Source of the DNA: an uncultured Bacilli bacterium
Lineage (GTDB): Bacteria; Bacillota_I; Bacilli_A; RF39; UBA660
NCBI GenBank assembly: GCA_934096275.1
Contig: CAKOLK010000003.1
Span: forward strand, 28,366 to 92,365
DNA: 64,000 bases
Direction: 5' to 3'
The notes beneath the pieces were generated by a model. That model did not search any database. It had not been told where the DNA came from and saw only the letters and a program-made list of their open reading frames with translations. A program made the position numbers and the translations under genes. Below are positions 9,291 to 62,649 of the stretch, in pieces; within the stretch, counting starts at the first letter, position 1, and each line of letters starts with the position of its first letter.

Positions 9291-9511
9291 CAATATTAGA
9301 CAATTTATAAACAAAATTAATGTATAAAAAAAACAAAAATAAGAACATATAAAAGTAAAATAAAATAAAAACATTGTCAAATACTTGTATAAAACTACTA
9401 AAAGTAGTATATTATATATAAAGAAACACGTTCCTTGAACGTCGACTTCTTGTTGATTTCTAAGTTGTGACGTTTCCCTATATCAGAGAGACGTCGCATT
9501 TATTATAACTA

Positions 9512-9598
9512 TTACTTAAAATATTTTAAGAAGATAATTAATAATAAAATAATAACTACAAATTGTAGCAAAATGACAAAGTCTTTTTTACTCATCAT
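9512..9598 (-). CDS. 28-aa hydrophobic small protein (possible type I toxin-like peptide)
   Basis: gaggtga RBS, 7-nt spacer, then ATGATG. Peptide MMSKKDFVILLQFVVIILLLIIFLKYFK. Absent from the ORF track because of its size. Confidence 0.3.
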   Translation of the reverse strand: MMSKKDFVILLQFVVIILLLIIFLKYFK

Positions 9599-9786
9599 AA
9601 TTATCACCTCATTTCTTAAAAAAAGATAATGAAGACGGCGCCCAAAGATACGTGCAATATAAATATAACAAATAAATGTTGTGTGTCAAGTTTATTGAGA
9701 GTAGAAAAATCTAACAAGAAATAGTACTTGAAAAAGTACTTTTTTTGTTATAGAATTAATATATAAGAAAATATGGAGGTAAAACT

Positions 9787-11482
9787 ATGAAAAACAAATA
9801 TTCGTATGGGGGGGGGGCGAAATACTTATAACCCTTTAAAAACTAAAGGAAGAAATAAAAAGATAACAACTATAATAATATTCCTAATACTAATAGTAGT
9901 TAGTATCTCTTTTGCTTTGTTTAATCCCAGTATTAATTTACTAGGAAGAAGAAATATAAAAATATCTAAATGTGAACTAGATATAAACTTTAAAGAAAGT
10001 GATGAGTTAATGCTAGTTAGTAAGTATCCTATATCTACAAGACAAGCCCTTGAAGGAGACTATAAACCTAAAACAGTTACTATAACTAATAATTCTACAT
10101 GTGATACAGCGTATTATAAATTAACTATAAAAGATTTAATAAACTCATCTATAAACAAAGATGTAATACAATATCATGTAGTAGATAAACAAAATACTAT
10201 GACGTATAAACTTGGAGATATTAATGGAGATGGAACAATAAAAATTTTTGATGTTACACTTATAAGGAGATATCAGAATGATACAGATAATTATTTTGGA
10301 TTACATTCAAATGCAAGATATGCTGCAGATTTAGATGGCAATGGCAAGATAAATGAAGAAGATGTTACATTACTTAGGCAATATATTTCGAATCCAAATG
10401 GTACTTTTCCCGCAGGCTCTCCACTTGAAGAAAAAACAACAACTAAAGAAATAATAGATGTAAACCCAGATACGTTCTTAATAGAAAATTCATTGGAAAA
10501 AGGACAAACACATGAATATGAAATAATGATGTGGATAAGTAATGTTGCAACAAATACAGATTTATACGTAAATGGAGATACAACAAAACCTATTGAATAT
10601 AAATATGCACTTAATATTGAAGCGTATGATGAAAAAAAGGAAGATGCTGAAATCGTTCCAATACTTAATATACCAGTAGGCACAAACGGTATTGAAAAAG
10701 TAACACATGAAATAGATGATACATTACAAGTAGATAGTAAGTTTGCAACAGAATATAGATATCGTGGAGGAGATTCAGTAGTAAATAACCGTGTAATATT
10801 TAATGATGAGACACGATGGAGAATCATCGGAGTAATACCGACTGAAGATACTTCTGGTAATGTAGAAAATAGAATAAAAATAATAAGAGATGAATCTATT
10901 GGAGAGTACGATTGGAATGAAGATGGTTTAAATGATTGGACAACTGCAACACTTAATACATATTTGAATAATGATTATTATAATACCTTAACAAGTGATG
11001 CTCAAAACATGATAGGAACAACAAAATATTATCTTGGTGGGTATGACTGGAGTGATGATACATTCACATTAGATATAATGTGGCGGTACGAAAGGAAAAA
11101 AGCAAATGATAATTTGGGTATATATTACTATGAAGGAAATCAAATAATGCAAAATGATGCCACTAAAAAGATAGCGCTAATGTATGCAAGTGATTATGGA
11201 TATGCAGCATCAAAAAAATGTTCAAAAGGGTTATTTTATTACAAGGAAGACGCTAATTGTATAACGACAAACAATTGGCTAGATAAATCGCAATATGAAT
11301 GGTTAATACCACAGGGGGTTGATACTAAATATGCATTCAATGTTAGTGATGGCGGTAATATAGAAATCGATGTTGTTAGTTACACTCATGCAGTTCGTCC
11401 AGTCCTAACACTCTCATCTAACGTAAAAATATCCGGAGGATCTGGCACAAGTTCTGACCCATACCAATTACAATTAAACTAA
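9787..11482 (+). CDS. phase-variable surface protein family member A (TM anchor, internal dockerin, conserved C-terminal domain); RBS-linked ATG currently out of frame
   Basis: ggaggtaaaactATG at 9787. G10 tract at 9808-9817. The long ORF is read from the internal ATG at 9806; 9 or 12 G would fuse the MKNKYSYGGG leader to it. Dockerin loops DINGDGTIKIFD and DLDGNGKINEED. Confidence 0.7.
9808..9817 (+). repeat. poly-G (G10) homopolymeric tract at the 5' end of the ORF, slipped-strand phase-variation site
   Basis: 10 consecutive G in a genome of about 27% GC, located between the RBS-linked ATG and the ORF body. Confidence 0.8.
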
Positions 11483-44264: not shown

Positions 44265-46034
44265 ATGCAAAATATAAAAGAAAATGAAAATCTAAATACT
44301 TTAAACCATAGTTGTGCTCACTTATTAGCACACGCTGTAAAACATCTTTATCCTGAAGCTAAGTTCTTTGTAGGACCAGTAATCGAAGAAGGATTCTATT
44401 ACGACATCGATCTAGGAGACAAAACTCTAACTGAAGAAGATCTTCCTAAAATAGAAAAAGAAATGAAAAAAATATCAAAAGACAACAAACTAATAAAAAG
44501 AATAGAACTAACAAAACAAGAAGCACTTGATATGTTCAAAGATGATATGTATAAAATAGACCTAATTAATAGAATGGATGAAAAAGAAATAATATCAGCA
44601 TATCAACAAGGAGACTTCATCGACTTATGCCGTGGTCCTCATATGACCTCTACTAAACAAATGAAATACTTCAAACTATTAAAAGTAAGTGGGGCATATT
44701 GGAAAGGGGACTCTAAAAACAAAATGCTTCAAAGAATATATGGTATATGCTTTGAAACAGAAGAAGAACTAAACGAACACTTACAAGCACTACAAGACGC
44801 TAAAGAAAGAGACCATCGTAAAATAGGAAAAGATCTTAACATATTCATGTTCTCTGAATTAGTAGGAAAAGGATTACCAATGTGGTTACCAAATGGATTC
44901 ATAATAAGAAAAGAACTAAGTGACTACATAACAGAAAAAGAACTAAAACTAGGATACAAACACGTAATGACACCATCACTTGGTAATGTTGACCTATACA
45001 AAACAAGTGGCCACTGGGCACACTATAAAGACGATATGTTTCCAGCAATGGAACTAGACAATGAATCATATGTTCTAAGACCAATGAACTGTCCACATCA
45101 CATGATGATTTATAAAAACTTTCTACACTCATACCGTGATCTACCACTTCGTTTAGCAGAAATAGCTAATGACTTTAGATACGAAGCAAGTGGAGCATGC
45201 TGTGGAATAGAAAGAGCAAGAGCATTTACACAAAATGATTCTCACATCTTCTGTACACAAGATCAAATAGGACAAGAAGTACAAGGAGTAATAGACTTAA
45301 TACTAGATGTATACAAAGACTTTAACTTTAAAGAATATAGTTTTAGACTATCACTAAGAGATAAAAATAACAAAGAAAAATACTTTGGTAACGATGAACT
45401 ATGGGAAAAAAGTGAAAATGCCCTAAGAAAAATCCTAAAAGAATCAAAAGCTAAATACTATGAAGCCGAAGGAGAAGCAGCATTCTATGGACCAAAAATA
45501 GATGTCCAAGTAAAAAGCGCAATAGGACACGACGTAACCCTTTCAACAGTACAATTAGACTATCAACTACCAGAAAGATTTGAACTTGAATACGTAGCAG
45601 AAGACGGTACAAAGAAAAGACCAGTAGTAATTCATCGTGCCATACTAGGATCACTTGATAGATTTACAGCATTCTTACTTGAAGAAACAAAAGGTGCTTT
45701 ACCACTTTGGCTATCTCCAGTTCAAGTAAACATTATTCCAGTAAATAATGAATACCATTTAGAATACGCAAAACAAATACAAAAACTTCTAAATGAAAAT
45801 AACATAAGATGTGAACTAGATTCTCGTGATGAAAAACTATCATACAAAATGAGAGAATCACAAACTAAAAAAATACCAGTAACACTAATACTTGGAGATA
45901 AAGAAAGAGATAACAACCAAATAAGCTTAAGAAGATTCCAATCAAAAGAAACAACAACAAAAGATAAAGAAGACTTTATAAATGAAATAACAAAAGAAAT
46001 AAAAGAAAAAATATATAGACCATCAAACAACTGA
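44265..46034 (+). CDS. thrS: threonyl-tRNA synthetase (lacks the N-terminal TGS domain)
   Basis: Class II aaRS motifs; CAHLLAHAV editing-domain start. Confidence 0.95.
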   Translation: MQNIKENENLNTLNHSCAHLLAHAVKHLYPEAKFFVGPVIEEGFYYDIDLGDKTLTEEDLPKIEKEMKKISKDNKLIKRIELTKQEALDMFKDDMYKIDLINRMDEKEIISAYQQGDFIDLCRGPHMTSTKQMKYFKLLKVSGAYWKGDSKNKMLQRIYGICFETEEELNEHLQALQDAKERDHRKIGKDLNIFMFSELVGKGLPMWLPNGFIIRKELSDYITEKELKLGYKHVMTPSLGNVDLYKTSGHWAHYKDDMFPAMELDNESYVLRPMNCPHHMMIYKNFLHSYRDLPLRLAEIANDFRYEASGACCGIERARAFTQNDSHIFCTQDQIGQEVQGVIDLILDVYKDFNFKEYSFRLSLRDKNNKEKYFGNDELWEKSENALRKILKESKAKYYEAEGEAAFYGPKIDVQVKSAIGHDVTLSTVQLDYQLPERFELEYVAEDGTKKRPVVIHRAILGSLDRFTAFLLEETKGALPLWLSPVQVNIIPVNNEYHLEYAKQIQKLLNENNIRCELDSRDEKLSYKMRESQTKKIPVTLILGDKERDNNQISLRRFQSKETTTKDKEDFINEITKEIKEKIYRPSNN

Positions 46035-60032: not shown

Positions 60033-60482
60033 ATGGAAGAATACACAGTAAAAGAAAATGATACCATATTTTCTATATCAAACTTATATGGCATACCCCC
60101 AATAGAAATAATAAGAACTAACAATTTAAAAGAACCATACAACATATTAAAAGGCCAAGTATTAGATGTTCCTACAACTACATATAATATATATGATAGA
60201 TATGTAGTAACAAATAAAGATACATTATATAGTATTGCTAAAAATGCAAATACCACAACTGATATAATCGAAGCAATAAATGGATTAGAAAAAAATGAAT
60301 ACATCTATGTAGGACAAACTCTTTTAATACCCAAGAAAGATATAAAGATATACATAACTAAAGAAGGGGATACTTTAGATGACGTATCAGACTACTTAAA
60401 AGTAGGAGTCCTAGACGTAGTTTATAGCAATAATAATATATTTTTATTACCTGATCAATTGATAACATATCGAAAAGTTTGA
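60033..60482 (+). CDS. LysM-domain protein (three LysM repeats)
   Basis: YTVKENDTIFSIS, YVVTNKDTLYSIA, YITKEGDTLDDVS. Confidence 0.8.
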   Translation: MEEYTVKENDTIFSISNLYGIPPIEIIRTNNLKEPYNILKGQVLDVPTTTYNIYDRYVVTNKDTLYSIAKNANTTTDIIEAINGLEKNEYIYVGQTLLIPKKDIKIYITKEGDTLDDVSDYLKVGVLDVVYSNNNIFLLPDQLITYRKV

Positions 60483-60513
60483 TTTTTTAACAAGAATATG
60501 TTATAATTATTTT

Positions 60514-61123
60514 CAACAAATGGCACATTATTCTAGTCAATAATTTATTACGAAGGTGGGGCTAAAAATCCACTAAAGAGCACATCGATGAAGTCCTTGG
60601 TGTTTGCTTTATACGCCCAGTTTGGGGTGGATGCTGAGGGTTAAGAATTTATGGGCGACTATAATGGCATATAGCAACCGACCCATTTATTCGTGGAGAC
60701 TTATTATTGTGAGAAGCCTATACAGATAAACTTGACGGACTTTTTACGAAATAAGTAAGAACCTATTATGTGGCGAAAGTTATGAATAGAGTAGCTTGGC
60801 TTGAGTGGTTATTTGGGATTATGGATAAGTTTTTTGTTACATGGCCAGTGATAAATAATTTGGTAACCATATGAAACTATAATTGCAAAAGAGCATAGTA
60901 ATAATAATTATTGTCGGGGAAAACCCCTAGAGTGACATCTCATAGGATTGCAGTGCGTACTAAGTGGTAATCAAGTCGTAGATATGGTGACATACTACTA
61001 TTTCTTTTAAAAGGGAACTGCTACACTGGTAACGGTAAGTAAGAAATAGGGAAATCCAACTTGACCTAAGACGTAAAGTTAACTATGACATAGCCATTCT
61101 TTAAGACCTTTGGGTCTTTTTTT
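60514..61123 (+). ncRNA. candidate large (~610 nt) structured non-coding RNA with own promoter and terminator, unclassified
   Basis: TTGATT, 17-bp spacer, TG-TATAAT at 60479-60507. No ORF of 60 aa or more on either strand across 720 bp. GC is 40-47% in sampled 60-nt stretches versus about 27% genome-wide. GGGG-AAAA-CCCC hairpin at 60916-60927. Terminator aagacc-tttg-ggtctt plus T7 at 61103-61123. Confidence 0.45.
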
Positions 61124-61202
61124 GTTCGAAAGAAAAAGTGTTAGGTAAGAATTTTCATAGTAACAAAATATGTGTTATAATAAAAACTAATTCAGTTAGG
61201 AG

Positions 61203-61937
61203 ATGATAGATTTGAAGACATATATTGTATTAGATGAATCAGGAGCAATGCATCTAAAAAATGAAAGATACTTTGTAATCGGAGGATTCATTACTAAAGA
61301 ATTGCATAAAGTTATTTCATCTCACAAAAAAACAGAAAAAGTAGTAAAACATATAAAAAACATACCTATTGATAAGAAAGTAGAATTAAAATCATATCGA
61401 ATTACTGATAGACAACAGGCATTATTCTTAAATGAACTATATTCATTGGAAAGTGTAGTACCAATAGCAATAATAATTGACAAAGAAAATTTAAAAAAGT
61501 TTAATGCATCTGAAAATGTTGCATATAATTTTTTTGTAAAAACATTGTTGAATTACTTATTCAAATGTAACATTTCTATCATGCAAACTGATCATATTGA
61601 GTTAAGATTAGATAATAGAAATGTTTCAGTAAAAGCATTAAAAGATTTAGAAACATTTCTTCAATGGGAATTTGATTTTATGAACTTAGATGTAGAAGTA
61701 AAATATTTAGATTCAAAAGATAATCGAGATATTCAAATGGCTGATTACATTGCAAATCTAGTATGGAAAAAATATAATTTACCTAATGAGAACCTATCAA
61801 AAAGAATTACTCAATATAACAAAATCTATACTTCGAAGTTTCCGTTTAAATCATTTGGTAATAATCCAAGTTTAAGAAAAGTCGAAGAAAATTGCAAAAA
61901 TTCAAAAACAAATCAAGAAACTATTGCAAATCCATAA
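61203..61937 (+). CDS. DUF3800-family protein
   Basis: N-terminal YIVLDESG (the DES motif of DUF3800). Own TG-TATAAT promoter at 61171-61180 and terminator at 62040-62070. Confidence 0.6.
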   Translation: MIDLKTYIVLDESGAMHLKNERYFVIGGFITKELHKVISSHKKTEKVVKHIKNIPIDKKVELKSYRITDRQQALFLNELYSLESVVPIAIIIDKENLKKFNASENVAYNFFVKTLLNYLFKCNISIMQTDHIELRLDNRNVSVKALKDLETFLQWEFDFMNLDVEVKYLDSKDNRDIQMADYIANLVWKKYNLPNENLSKRITQYNKIYTSKFPFKSFGNNPSLRKVEENCKNSKTNQETIANP

Positions 61938-62118
61938 AAAAATGGTATAATACTACCAGAAGACCTTTAAGGCTCATCGAACCAAGTGTTTCGTACACAA
62001 TGTTCTAATCGTATGTTAAGTACGAGATTCCTTAGGCAGAAAAGTAATCCATTAGGGTTACTTTTTCTTTTTAATTATGTTATACTCAAATTACTAATAA
62101 AAAAAAGGAAGAGATTAA

Positions 62119-62649
62119 ATGAAACAAAAACAAAAAGTAGATAAAAAGTGGATACTAATAATAACATCAATTGCTTTTACTATATCATTATTACTATCTT
62201 TAATATCAGAACTTATAATACCTAACGTATTCATCATAATAAGTATTATTTTAGTACTAGTATTCGTATTACTAGGAATAATCTTTGATATAATCGGAGT
62301 AGCAGTATCAACAAGTGATGATAAATCATTTCACAGCATGGCATCACAAAAAGTAATGGGTTCAAAAACTGCAATCAACTTTATAAAAAATAAAGAAAAA
62401 GTATCATCATTCTGTAATGATGTAATCGGAGATATATGTGGGGTAGTAAGTGGTAGCTGTGGACTTTCAATAGCCATAAAACTATCTAATATGCTAAACA
62501 TAAATCCAGTACTAACAACAATCTTAATAACAAGTACAATATCTGCTTTAACAATCGGAGGAAAAGCAATAGGAAAAACATACGCACTAACAAAAAACAA
62601 CCAAATAGTATATAAAACTGCTAAAATAATGAATATTTTCTCAAAATAA
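62119..62649 (+). CDS. 4-TM small membrane protein
   Basis: 176 aa with four predicted TM helices. Confidence 0.45.
   Translation: MKQKQKVDKKWILIITSIAFTISLLLSLISELIIPNVFIIISIILVLVFVLLGIIFDIIGVAVSTSDDKSFHSMASQKVMGSKTAINFIKNKEKVSSFCNDVIGDICGVVSGSCGLSIAIKLSNMLNINPVLTTILITSTISALTIGGKAIGKTYALTKNNQIVYKTAKIMNIFSK

What the first reader, a model, noticed from the sequence alone, without database searches (positions are those of the whole stretch)
60479..61180. About 610-nt GC-enriched ORF-free transcription unit upstream of a DUF3800 gene: candidate large structured ncRNA
A 720-bp stretch has no ORF of 60 aa or more on either strand. Its GC content is 40–47% in sampled 60-nt stretches, against about 27% for the window. 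It is bracketed by a TTGATT-17-TGnTATAAT promoter and an intrinsic terminator. It contains G-C-rich hairpins such as GGGG-AAAA-CCCC. The DUF3800 gene that follows has its own promoter. DUF3800 genes are the named neighbours of several structured-RNA motifs (DUF3800-I to -X) from comparative genomics, but those motifs are short. A ~600-nt RNA here could be a member or relative of the large ornate RNA classes (ROOL, GOLLD, OLE-like) or an unrecognised one. I could not match tmRNA or RNase P hallmarks.
Basis: partly seen in the sequence, partly recalled or inferred. Interest (0 to 1): 0.8.

Follow-up and report, generated by a model that had tools for sequence, protein, structure and literature searches.

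The report
OLE RNA gene, already known
The 610-nt ORF-free, GC-enriched unit is a full-length copy of the well-known OLE (ornate, large, extremophilic) RNA of an uncultured human-gut Bacilli bacterium, so it is ordinary. The DUF3800 gene beside it is a strain-variable 1-kb insertion, carrying its own small RNA, that has landed between the OLE gene and its usual partner gene oapA.

Summary
Window 60483-61202 has no ORF of 60 aa or more, is the most GC-rich 610-nt stretch of the window, and is bracketed by a promoter and an intrinsic terminator. Its identity is settled: Rfam RF01071 (OLE RNA) matches 60504-61113 end to end at 398 bits (threshold 50, E 1.7e-113). 138 of 159 consensus pairs form, the clade shows covariation, and the OapB-binding P13 hairpin and the dimer-loop GGCC palindrome are present. 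In nine related loci OLE sits 20-60 nt upstream of a 176-aa membrane-protein gene (probable oapA, here 62119-62649). Only the window and two close relatives carry about 977 bp (61124-62100) in between. That insert holds an RNase-H2-like DUF3800 gene and a separately promoted, terminated, covarying sRNA of about 115 nt. The sRNA is a sub-threshold relative of Rfam DUF3800-I. Elsewhere the same cassette usually lies just downstream of tRNA genes. Verdict: a known RNA class with low interest. The cassette's apparent preference for the 3' flank of stable-RNA genes is a modest side lead.

The parts
60479..60507 (+). Promoter of the ole gene: TTGATT, 17 nt, TG-n-TATAAT (extended -10). The inferred transcription start is about 60514-60516.
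   Evidence: Consensus scan. TTG and TATAAT are invariant or nearly so, and in register, in 11 related loci whose flanks diverge. The start site is inferred, not measured.
60504..61113 (+). OLE RNA (ornate, large, extremophilic RNA), full-length type.
   Evidence: Rfam RF01071: 398.2 bits against threshold 50, E 1.7e-113, model 1-616/616, not truncated, and the only family reaching its threshold in the 64 kb. 138 of 159 consensus pairs are canonical or G-U, 7 are gapped (the P11 hairpin is missing) and 14 are non-pairs. Covariation in 10 clade members: 42 pairs changed on both sides, against 15.7 +/- 2.9 in shuffles and 7-14 in slid controls.
60843..60846 (+). GGCC palindrome in the loop of the long P9 arm (L9.3), the loop that forms a dimer kissing-loop bridge in the cryo-EM structure.
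   Evidence: Read directly from the sequence. GGCC is kept in all 10 aligned OLEs. Its role comes from PMC12286853; it was not tested here.
60978..60998 (+). P13 hairpin, the OapB-binding site: GUAG-A(bulge)-UAUG-GUGA-CAUA-CUAC.
   Evidence: Sequence. A GNRA tetraloop plus a one-nucleotide bulge are the features required for OapB binding (PMC7936274).
61103..61123 (+). Intrinsic terminator of ole: AAGACC-TTTG-GGTCTT followed by a T-run.
   Evidence: Terminator scan. It is retained in relatives that lack the cassette.
61124..62100 (+). Strain-variable inserted cassette of about 977 bp, not part of the OLE system. It holds the DUF3800 gene and a small RNA.
   Evidence: Absent from L002, L003, L005 and L007, and from L033-L036; L006 keeps only a remnant of its 3' end. 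Present in the window, L004 and L008.
61203..61937 (+). DUF3800 protein gene (244 aa) with an RNase H2-like fold. Its promoter-like element lies at 61152-61181.
61958..62075 (+). Small structured RNA of about 115 nt ('RNA2'), DUF3800-I-like. Its own promoter is at 61924-61951 (TGGTATAAT at 61943-61951) and its terminator at 62039-62066 plus a T-run.
   Evidence: Rfam DUF3800-I scores 28.9 bits, below the threshold of 44.2; a divergent homolog, L031, scores 41.4. It is conserved directly 3' of DUF3800 genes in more than 25 loci. Covariation: 95.4% of cells paired, 18 pairs changed on both sides against 6.1 in shuffles and 3-8 in slid controls. TGnTATAAT is conserved 7-8 nt before an invariant AGAAGACC.
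62119..62649 (+). Probable oapA (OLE-associated protein A): a 176-aa membrane protein.
   Evidence: It lies directly downstream of OLE (20-60 nt) in nine related loci. It has a weak CNNM/DUF21 match (PF01595, E 2.2e-4, below threshold), as documented for OapA (PMC11332333). It has hydrophobic segments and lysine-rich loops. It was not aligned to a characterised OapA.

Best explanation
Window 60504-61113 (+) is the gene for OLE RNA, a known ncRNA class of about 600 nt found in Bacillota. The host is an uncultured Bacilli bacterium from human gut metagenomes. The RNA is transcribed on its own from a conserved extended -10 promoter (60479-60507) and ends at an intrinsic terminator (61103-61123). 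By homology with the characterised Halalkalibacterium halodurans system, the RNA folds into its multi-domain structure and dimerises. It is held at the membrane by OapA, which is probably the 176-aa protein at 62119-62649. It also binds OapB through the P13 GNRA hairpin and OapC through a kink-turn beside P5. The resulting ribonucleoprotein helps cells cope with cold, short-chain alcohols, excess Mg2+ and poor carbon sources. Shown here: family identity, structure conservation, the promoter and terminator signals, and synteny with the oapA-like gene. Inferred only: expression, protein binding, membrane localisation and physiological role in this organism. The adjacent DUF3800 gene is not functionally tied to this RNA. 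It belongs to a 977-bp accessory cassette (an RNase-H2-like protein plus its own small RNA) inserted between ole and oapA in this strain group.
For: Rfam RF01071 matches at 398.2 bits, E 1.7e-113, over the full model, and is the only family reaching its threshold in the window. 138 of 159 consensus pairs form. Across 10 clade OLEs the Rfam structure is 88% paired, with 42 doubly changed pairs against 15.7 in shuffles and 7-14 in slid controls. The P13 GUGA loop with bulge and the L9.3 GGCC palindrome are present. The promoter is conserved in 11 loci and there is a terminator. OLE is also found at 376-405 bits in L002-L007 and by nhmmer in L008 and L033-L036. In each locus it sits between a LysM-protein gene and the same membrane-protein gene. 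That gene has the weak CNNM homology reported for OapA. Record titles name Bacilli or Mycoplasmatota-like gut MAGs, which fits the Bacillota distribution of OLE.
Against: There are no expression data, so the transcript ends are inferred. The P11 hairpin of the Rfam model is missing and the outer P12 helix is weakened. The thermodynamic z-score is only -2.6. ole and oapA are separated here by two terminators and about 1 kb, unlike the usual adjacency, so coordinated expression could be altered. The OapA assignment rests on synteny and a sub-threshold Pfam match. OapB and OapC genes were not looked for.
Confidence: 0.97

Rival explanations
1. It is an unrecognised class of large structured RNA, or a relative of ROOL, GOLLD, RNase P, tmRNA or a group I/II intron.
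For: Only its size and ORF-free, GC-enriched character.
Against: The scan of all 4227 Rfam families returns OLE alone, end to end, at 398 bits. No other family reaches threshold.
Confidence: 0.01
2. It is the RNA partner or 5' leader of the DUF3800 gene, as the DUF3800-I to -XI motifs would suggest.
For: It lies immediately upstream of a DUF3800 gene. DUF3800 genes are known neighbours of structured RNAs (PMC5737381).
Against: A terminator and a separate promoter lie between them. The DUF3800 gene is missing from nine related loci that keep OLE. More than 25 loci with homologous DUF3800 genes have no OLE but do keep the small downstream RNA.
Confidence: 0.01
3. It is a decayed protein-coding gene.
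For: It is an unusually long non-coding gap.
Against: No ORF longer than 41 aa. The conservation pattern is that of base-paired helices with compensatory changes. The covariance-model E-value is 1.7e-113.
Confidence: 0.005
4. It is an OLE gene on its way to loss: the cassette uncoupled it from oapA, so the RNP is no longer properly made in this strain.
For: The cassette places two terminators and 977 bp between ole and oapA. OLE has been lost or reduced in many lineages (PMC11332333), and a related locus (L034) has lost P7.
Against: The OLE sequence, promoter and terminator are intact and 94-96% identical to cassette-free relatives. An extended -10-like TGTTATACT precedes oapA in the window, as TGTTATAAT does in cassette-free alleles. 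oapA is intact.
Confidence: 0.05

Closest known systems
OLE RNA, full-length type (Rfam RF01071; Puerta-Fernandez 2006; Fernando & Breaker 2024, PMC11332333)
   Same: It matches the model end to end. The conserved sequence blocks are present, along with the P2, P5-P10 and P12-P15 helices, the P13 GNRA hairpin with its bulge, the GGCC loop palindrome, a Bacillota host, and an oapA-like gene downstream.
   Different: The P11 hairpin is absent and the outer P12 helix is weak. The RNA is AT-rich (36% GC). oapA lies 1 kb away rather than adjacent, because of an insertion.
OLE variants 1 and 2 (TANB77 and RF39 gut lineages; PMC11332333)
   Same: The host is an uncultured, low-GC gut bacterium. A related locus (L034) lacks P7, as reduced variants do.
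   Different: The window copy keeps P7, P8, the long P9 arm and the OapB site, so it is not a reduced variant.
ROOL and GOLLD RNAs (the other large ornate bacterial RNAs)
   Same: Large, highly structured ncRNAs that form homo-oligomers and whose biochemical function is unknown.
   Different: No sequence or structure match. ROOL and GOLLD are associated with phages and tRNA islands and form nanocages, whereas OLE is chromosomal, linked to oapA and forms a dimer (PMC12286853).
DUF3800-I RNA motif (Rfam RF02969; Weinberg 2017, PMC5737381), for the small RNA at 61958-62075
   Same: It lies next to a DUF3800 gene and ends in an intrinsic terminator. It has the same order of helices: an outer stem, an inner stem and two hairpins. 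It has UAA-containing conserved loops. DUF3800-I is the best Rfam hit, over the full model.
   Different: It scores 28.9 bits, below the threshold of 44.2, and homologs reach at most 41.4. The first inner hairpin is enlarged. The model's 5' hairpin corresponds here to a conserved promoter, not a conserved stem.

Membership tests
OLE RNA (RF01071) | Score above the curated gathering threshold of the covariance model, over the full length | tested here: met
   398.2 bits against 50, model 1-616/616, E 1.7e-113.
OLE RNA (RF01071) | The conserved multi-helix secondary structure is maintained, with compensatory changes among relatives | tested here: met
   138 of 159 consensus pairs form. In 10 clade members 88% of cells pair, and 42 pairs change on both sides against 15.7 +/- 2.9 in shuffles and 7-14 in slid controls. 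The P11 hairpin is missing.
OLE RNA (RF01071) | [quoted passage not shown] | tested here: met
   GUAG-A-UAUG-GUGA-CAUA-CUAC at 60978-60998. The criteria come from PMC7936274. Binding itself was not tested.
OLE RNA (RF01071) | oapA is the usual immediate downstream neighbour | tested here: met
   It is adjacent (20-60 nt) in nine related loci. In the window the same gene lies 1 kb downstream, behind an inserted cassette. The neighbour rule comes from PMC12265935.
OLE RNA (RF01071) | Host in Bacillota, typically an anaerobe or extremophile | tested here: met
   The closest records are 'uncultured Bacilli bacterium' MAGs from Hadza gut metagenomes. The family's distribution is given in PMC11332333.
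OLE RNA (RF01071) | Expressed as an RNA of about 600 nt that localises to the membrane in an RNP with OapA, OapB and OapC | not testable with these tools
   Only the conserved promoter and terminator support expression.
OapA (OLE-associated protein A), for ORF 62119-62649 | Small multi-pass membrane protein encoded next to ole, weakly homologous to the CNNM/DUF21 transmembrane domain | tested here: met
   Synteny in nine loci. PF01595 E 2.2e-4, 21.4 bits, below the cut-off of 28.4. Many homologs carry a precomputed PF01595 hit. Hydrophobic segments span residues 10-67 and 102-120, and the loops are lysine-rich. The OapA-CNNM link is from PMC11332333.
OapA (OLE-associated protein A), for ORF 62119-62649 | Sequence homology to an experimentally characterised OapA (H. 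halodurans, or C. botulinum CLB_RS09010) | not tested
NCBIfam has no model that hits this protein.
DUF3800-I RNA (RF02969), for 61958-62075 | Score above the Rfam gathering threshold | tested here: not met
   28.9 bits against 44.2. None of 15 homologous loci reached threshold. The best is L031 at 41.4 bits, E 0.0011.
DUF3800-I RNA (RF02969), for 61958-62075 | Adjacent to a DUF3800 gene, followed by a Rho-independent terminator, with a conserved multi-stem core | tested here: met
   It lies directly 3' of DUF3800 genes in more than 25 loci. There is a terminator. The structure is 95.4% paired with 18 doubly changed pairs. The family description is in PMC5737381.

The most novel reading that the evidence does not exclude
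The roughly 1-kb DUF3800 cassette (an RNase-H2-like protein plus its own promoter-to-terminator small RNA) may be a self-contained mobile or selfish module that preferentially settles just downstream of stable-RNA genes. In 7 of 10 distinct site types it follows such a gene on the same strand: six tRNA species (Leu-CAA, Leu-TAG, Arg-CCG, Arg-TCT, Lys-TTT, Thr-GGT) at 18-203 nt, usually right after its terminator, and OLE in this window. It is present or absent among genomes more than 94% identical at this locus. One relative (L006) keeps only a remnant of the cassette's 3' end, fused at a 9-nt repeat (AAGACCTTT, 61103-61111 and 61960-61968). If this is an active targeting mechanism, it would give the so far functionless DUF3800/RNA pairs a testable biology.
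Probability: 0.3. Interest if true: 0.5.

Novelty: already known. Interest (0 to 1): 0.15.

Why it matters
For the finding itself, little: it is one more instance of a catalogued RNA class that any Rfam-based annotation would label. It does show that a reader without tools can spot OLE from composition and transcription signals alone. Two small points may interest specialists. First, this gut Bacilli clade carries a full-length OLE with an intact OapB site, while a related locus has lost P7. Second, the ole-oapA spacer is a polymorphic insertion site. Natural strains with ole and oapA either adjacent or split by 1 kb and two terminators could be used to ask whether co-transcription matters. 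The DUF3800/small-RNA cassette sitting behind tRNA genes and OLE is a lead on a protein-RNA pair whose function is unknown.

Tried and rejected
(1) A permissive Rfam scan of 61100-62200 gave only a sub-threshold DUF3800-I hit plus chance snoRNA and miRNA matches, and nothing else near the DUF3800 gene.
(2) PADLOC has no defence-system model matching the DUF3800 protein, the oapA candidate or the two upstream proteins. PHROGs gives only a family of unknown function. NCBIfam names neither the DUF3800 protein nor the OapA candidate.
(3) I looked for the AAGACC/GGTCTT motif upstream of the cassette in other loci as a possible target site. It is found only at the OLE locus, apart from one chance hit inside a tRNA, so it is not a general target sequence.
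(4) I looked for an integrase or a larger island around the cassette. The flanks are housekeeping genes (RuvAB, PcrA, MutL, ScpAB), except in one context that has a serine recombinase and a Mob_Pre-like gene.
(5) Thermodynamic folding alone is weak evidence (z -2.6), so it was not relied on.
(6) The Weinberg 2017 supplement with comments on DUF3800-I is not held.
(7) The first hairpin of the Rfam DUF3800-I model is not supported here. The TGnTATAAT is conserved as sequence, but its would-be pairing partner is not, so I read it as a promoter.
(8) The second GC-rich region of the window (44.6-45.6 kb) is simply the threonyl-tRNA synthetase gene.

Full report
OBSERVATION. The stretch between the LysM-protein gene (60033-60482) and the DUF3800 gene (61203-61937) is 720 bp. 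It has no ORF longer than 41 aa on either strand. It is the longest genuine ORF-free stretch in the 64 kb. Its GC content is 36.4% over 60504-61113, against 26.6% for the window. The two highest of 1268 sliding 610-nt windows lie here (profile). The promoter TTGATT-17-TGnTATAAT (60479-60507), the terminator AAGACC-TTTG-GGTCTT plus T-run (61103-61123), the GGGGAAAACCCC hairpin (60916-60927) and a separate TG-TATAAT element before the DUF3800 gene are all present. Promoter-like hits as such are no commoner than in shuffled sequence. However, this one keeps TTG and TATAAT in register in all 11 related loci even where the flanks have diverged.

IDENTITY. A scan of the whole window against all 4227 Rfam families at curated thresholds returns a single hit. 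It is RF01071, OLE RNA, at 60504-61113 (+), with 398.2 bits (threshold 50), E 1.7e-113, model positions 1-616 of 616, not truncated. The long conserved blocks of the family are all there: GCACAUCGAUGAAGU, GCCCAG, CGUGGAGAC, ACUAAGUGGUAAUC, UUUAAAAGGGAAC and GGGAAAUCC...GACCUAAG. Of the 159 consensus base pairs, 138 form canonical or G-U pairs in the window copy, 7 are gapped and 14 do not pair. The gapped ones are mainly the short P11 hairpin, which the whole clade lacks.

I mapped the Rfam structure onto an alignment of ten OLEs from this clade, which range from about 80% to 97% identity. 88% of cells pair. 42 pairs show changes on both sides, against 15.7 +/- 2.9 in column shuffles and 7-14 when partners are slid by 1-3 columns.

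The P13 hairpin is GUAG-A-UAUG-GUGA-CAUA-CUAC (60978-60998). It has the GNRA tetraloop and single-nucleotide bulge that OapB binding requires (PMC7936274). The loop of the long P9 arm keeps the GGCC palindrome (60843-60846) that the cryo-EM study links to a dimer kissing-loop bridge (PMC12286853). P7, P8 and the long P9 arm are present, so this is the 'full-length' type. It is not the reduced variant 1 or 2 described for some gut lineages (PMC11332333). Thermodynamic folding alone is only mildly better than shuffles (z -2.6), and I give it little weight.

SURROUNDINGS AND RELATIVES. The exact 176-aa protein encoded at 62119-62649 occurs in Hadza human-gut metagenome assemblies. The closest genome records are 'uncultured Bacilli bacterium' MAGs, with more distant ones labelled Bacilli or Mycoplasma. 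Six genome loci (L002-L007) all carry a full-length OLE at 376-405 bits. Four more distant metagenome loci (L033-L036, 63-70% identity in the 176-aa protein) also have OLE.

The gene order is conserved: RNHCP protein, a protein of about 390 aa, LysM protein, OLE, the 176-aa membrane protein, (a small gene), Der GTPase, SpoVIF, RuvAB. In nine of these loci OLE ends 20-60 nt before the membrane-protein gene.

That protein has hydrophobic segments, lysine-rich loops and a basic tail. It gives a weak, sub-threshold match to the CNNM/DUF21 transmembrane domain (E 2.2e-4), and many homologs have that domain precomputed. This is exactly the relationship reported for OapA (PMC11332333). oapA is also the commonest immediate downstream neighbour of ole (PMC12265935). 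I therefore call it probable oapA. I could not align it to a characterised OapA.

THE DUF3800 GENE IS AN INSERTION. BLASTN and a multiple alignment show that window 61124 to about 62100 (977 bp) is absent from L002, L003, L005 and L007, and also from L033-L036. It is present only in the window, L004 and L008. The left junction falls immediately after the T-run of the OLE terminator (61123|61124).

A third allele (L006) lacks the DUF3800 gene but retains the outer stem and terminator of the small downstream RNA. The remnant is joined to OLE at AAGACCTTT, a 9-mer that occurs both in the OLE terminator (61103-61111) and at the 5' end of the small RNA (61960-68). L004 also has an extra lipoprotein gene between the LysM gene and OLE. 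The flanks of ole are therefore a hotspot for gene gain and loss in this lineage.

The 180-bp gap after the gene is not empty. It gives a sub-threshold Rfam DUF3800-I hit over the full model (28.9 bits, threshold 44.2). The same element is found by nhmmer directly 3' of homologous DUF3800 genes (62-79% identity) in more than 25 other loci, none of which has OLE or oapA nearby. A TGnTATAAT element is conserved 7-8 nt upstream of an invariant AGAAGACCUUUAAGG, and every copy ends in a terminator. It is therefore an independent sRNA gene of about 115 nt.

A structure consisting of an outer stem, an inner stem, two hairpins and the terminator is 95.4% paired. It has 18 doubly changed pairs, against 6.1 in shuffles and 3-8 in slid controls. 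I derived this structure from these same sequences, which inflates the contrast somewhat. The most divergent copy (L031) scores 41.4 bits on DUF3800-I. I therefore read the element as a divergent, sub-threshold relative of that motif, not a certified member. No defence-system model matches the protein.

WHERE THE CASSETTE SITS ELSEWHERE. In most other loci the cassette lies 18-203 nt downstream of a tRNA gene on the same strand, usually just past that gene's terminator. The tRNAs are Leu-CAA, Leu-TAG, Arg-CCG, Arg-TCT, Lys-TTT and Thr-GGT. Counting OLE, 7 of 10 distinct site types follow a stable-RNA gene. The flanking genes are housekeeping genes, with no integrase nearby. The one exception is a context next to a serine recombinase and a Mob_Pre-like gene. 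This placement is far from random, but I have an empty-site comparison only for the OLE locus. Whether it reflects active targeting therefore remains open.

MECHANISM. For the RNA in the finding, the best-supported account is the known one. OLE RNA is made as a stand-alone transcript and folds and dimerises. OapA recruits it to the membrane. It binds OapB at P13 and OapC at a kink-turn next to P5. The RNP supports adaptation to cold, alcohols, Mg2+ and carbon-source stress. The family assignment, the binding-site sequences and the synteny are shown here. Everything about activity in this organism is inferred. The cassette leaves OLE, its promoter and its terminator intact. An extended -10-like element precedes oapA both with and without the cassette. 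I therefore expect the OLE system to remain functional, and give about 5% to the alternative that it is being lost.

COMPARISON AND NOVELTY. All testable defining features of OLE RNA are met; see the membership table. The only deviations are the missing P11 hairpin and the interrupted adjacency to oapA. OLE has already been surveyed across GTDB, with 2,822 Bacillota hits including gut lineages, so this is an already known feature. Its use of the DUF3800 neighbourhood as a clue was mistaken, because the DUF3800-associated RNA is the small one on the other side of that gene.

SCORES. Interest is 0.15 and novelty is 'already known'. The most novel reading not excluded concerns the cassette, not the finding. 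It may be a small RNase-H-like/sRNA module that homes to the 3' flank of stable-RNA genes (probability about 0.3, interest if true about 0.5).

Noticed in passing
window 61924-62075: A second, small ncRNA gene lies directly after the DUF3800 gene. It is about 115 nt, with a conserved TGnTATAAT promoter and its own terminator. It is a sub-threshold DUF3800-I relative (28.9 bits against 44.2), is conserved next to DUF3800 genes in more than 25 loci, and shows clear covariation.
   Followed up: yes
window 61124-62100; L002 5946-6000; L006 4009-4104: There are three alleles of the ole-oapA spacer among genomes more than 90% identical: a short spacer, the full 977-bp DUF3800 cassette, and a remnant that keeps only the small RNA's outer stem and terminator. 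The 9-mer AAGACCTTT is shared by the OLE terminator (61103-61111) and the small RNA's 5' end (61960-61968), and it marks the L006 junction.
   Followed up: partly
L012, L014-L019, L021, L023, L040, L043, L046 (about 18-203 nt upstream of the DUF3800 start): Homologous DUF3800 plus small-RNA cassettes usually sit just downstream of a tRNA gene and its terminator on the same strand. Six different tRNA species are involved. The flanks are housekeeping genes and no integrase is nearby. One other context (L009-L011, L037-L039) lies beside a serine recombinase and a Mob_Pre-like gene.
   Followed up: partly
L004 3289-4359: One close relative has an extra 356-aa predicted lipoprotein gene inserted between the LysM gene and the OLE promoter. 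The window lacks it, so both flanks of ole vary between strains.
   Followed up: no
L034 2428-2957 (alignment A4 columns 201-251): A related gut lineage has an OLE copy that lacks the whole P7 arm. It resembles the reduced OLE variants described in the literature, whereas the window copy is full length.
   Followed up: no
window 9787-9830: A run of 10 G (9808-9817) lies at the very start of a 558-aa ORF in a 27% GC genome. The ATG with a good GGAGG ribosome-binding site (9787) is out of frame with the long ORF and stops at 9829, while the in-frame ATG (9806) has no nearby RBS. This looks like a slipped-strand phase-variation switch, or a sequencing error in the homopolymer.
   Followed up: no
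window 9291-9786: This is the second-longest ORF-free stretch of the window (about 500 bp), lying after a sigma-factor-like gene. No Rfam family reaches its threshold there. It contains some GC-rich inverted repeats.
   Followed up: no
window 1-64000: Apart from OLE, no Rfam family reaches its threshold anywhere in the 64 kb: no tRNA, no riboswitch, and no T-box, not even upstream of thrS (44265-46034).
   Followed up: no
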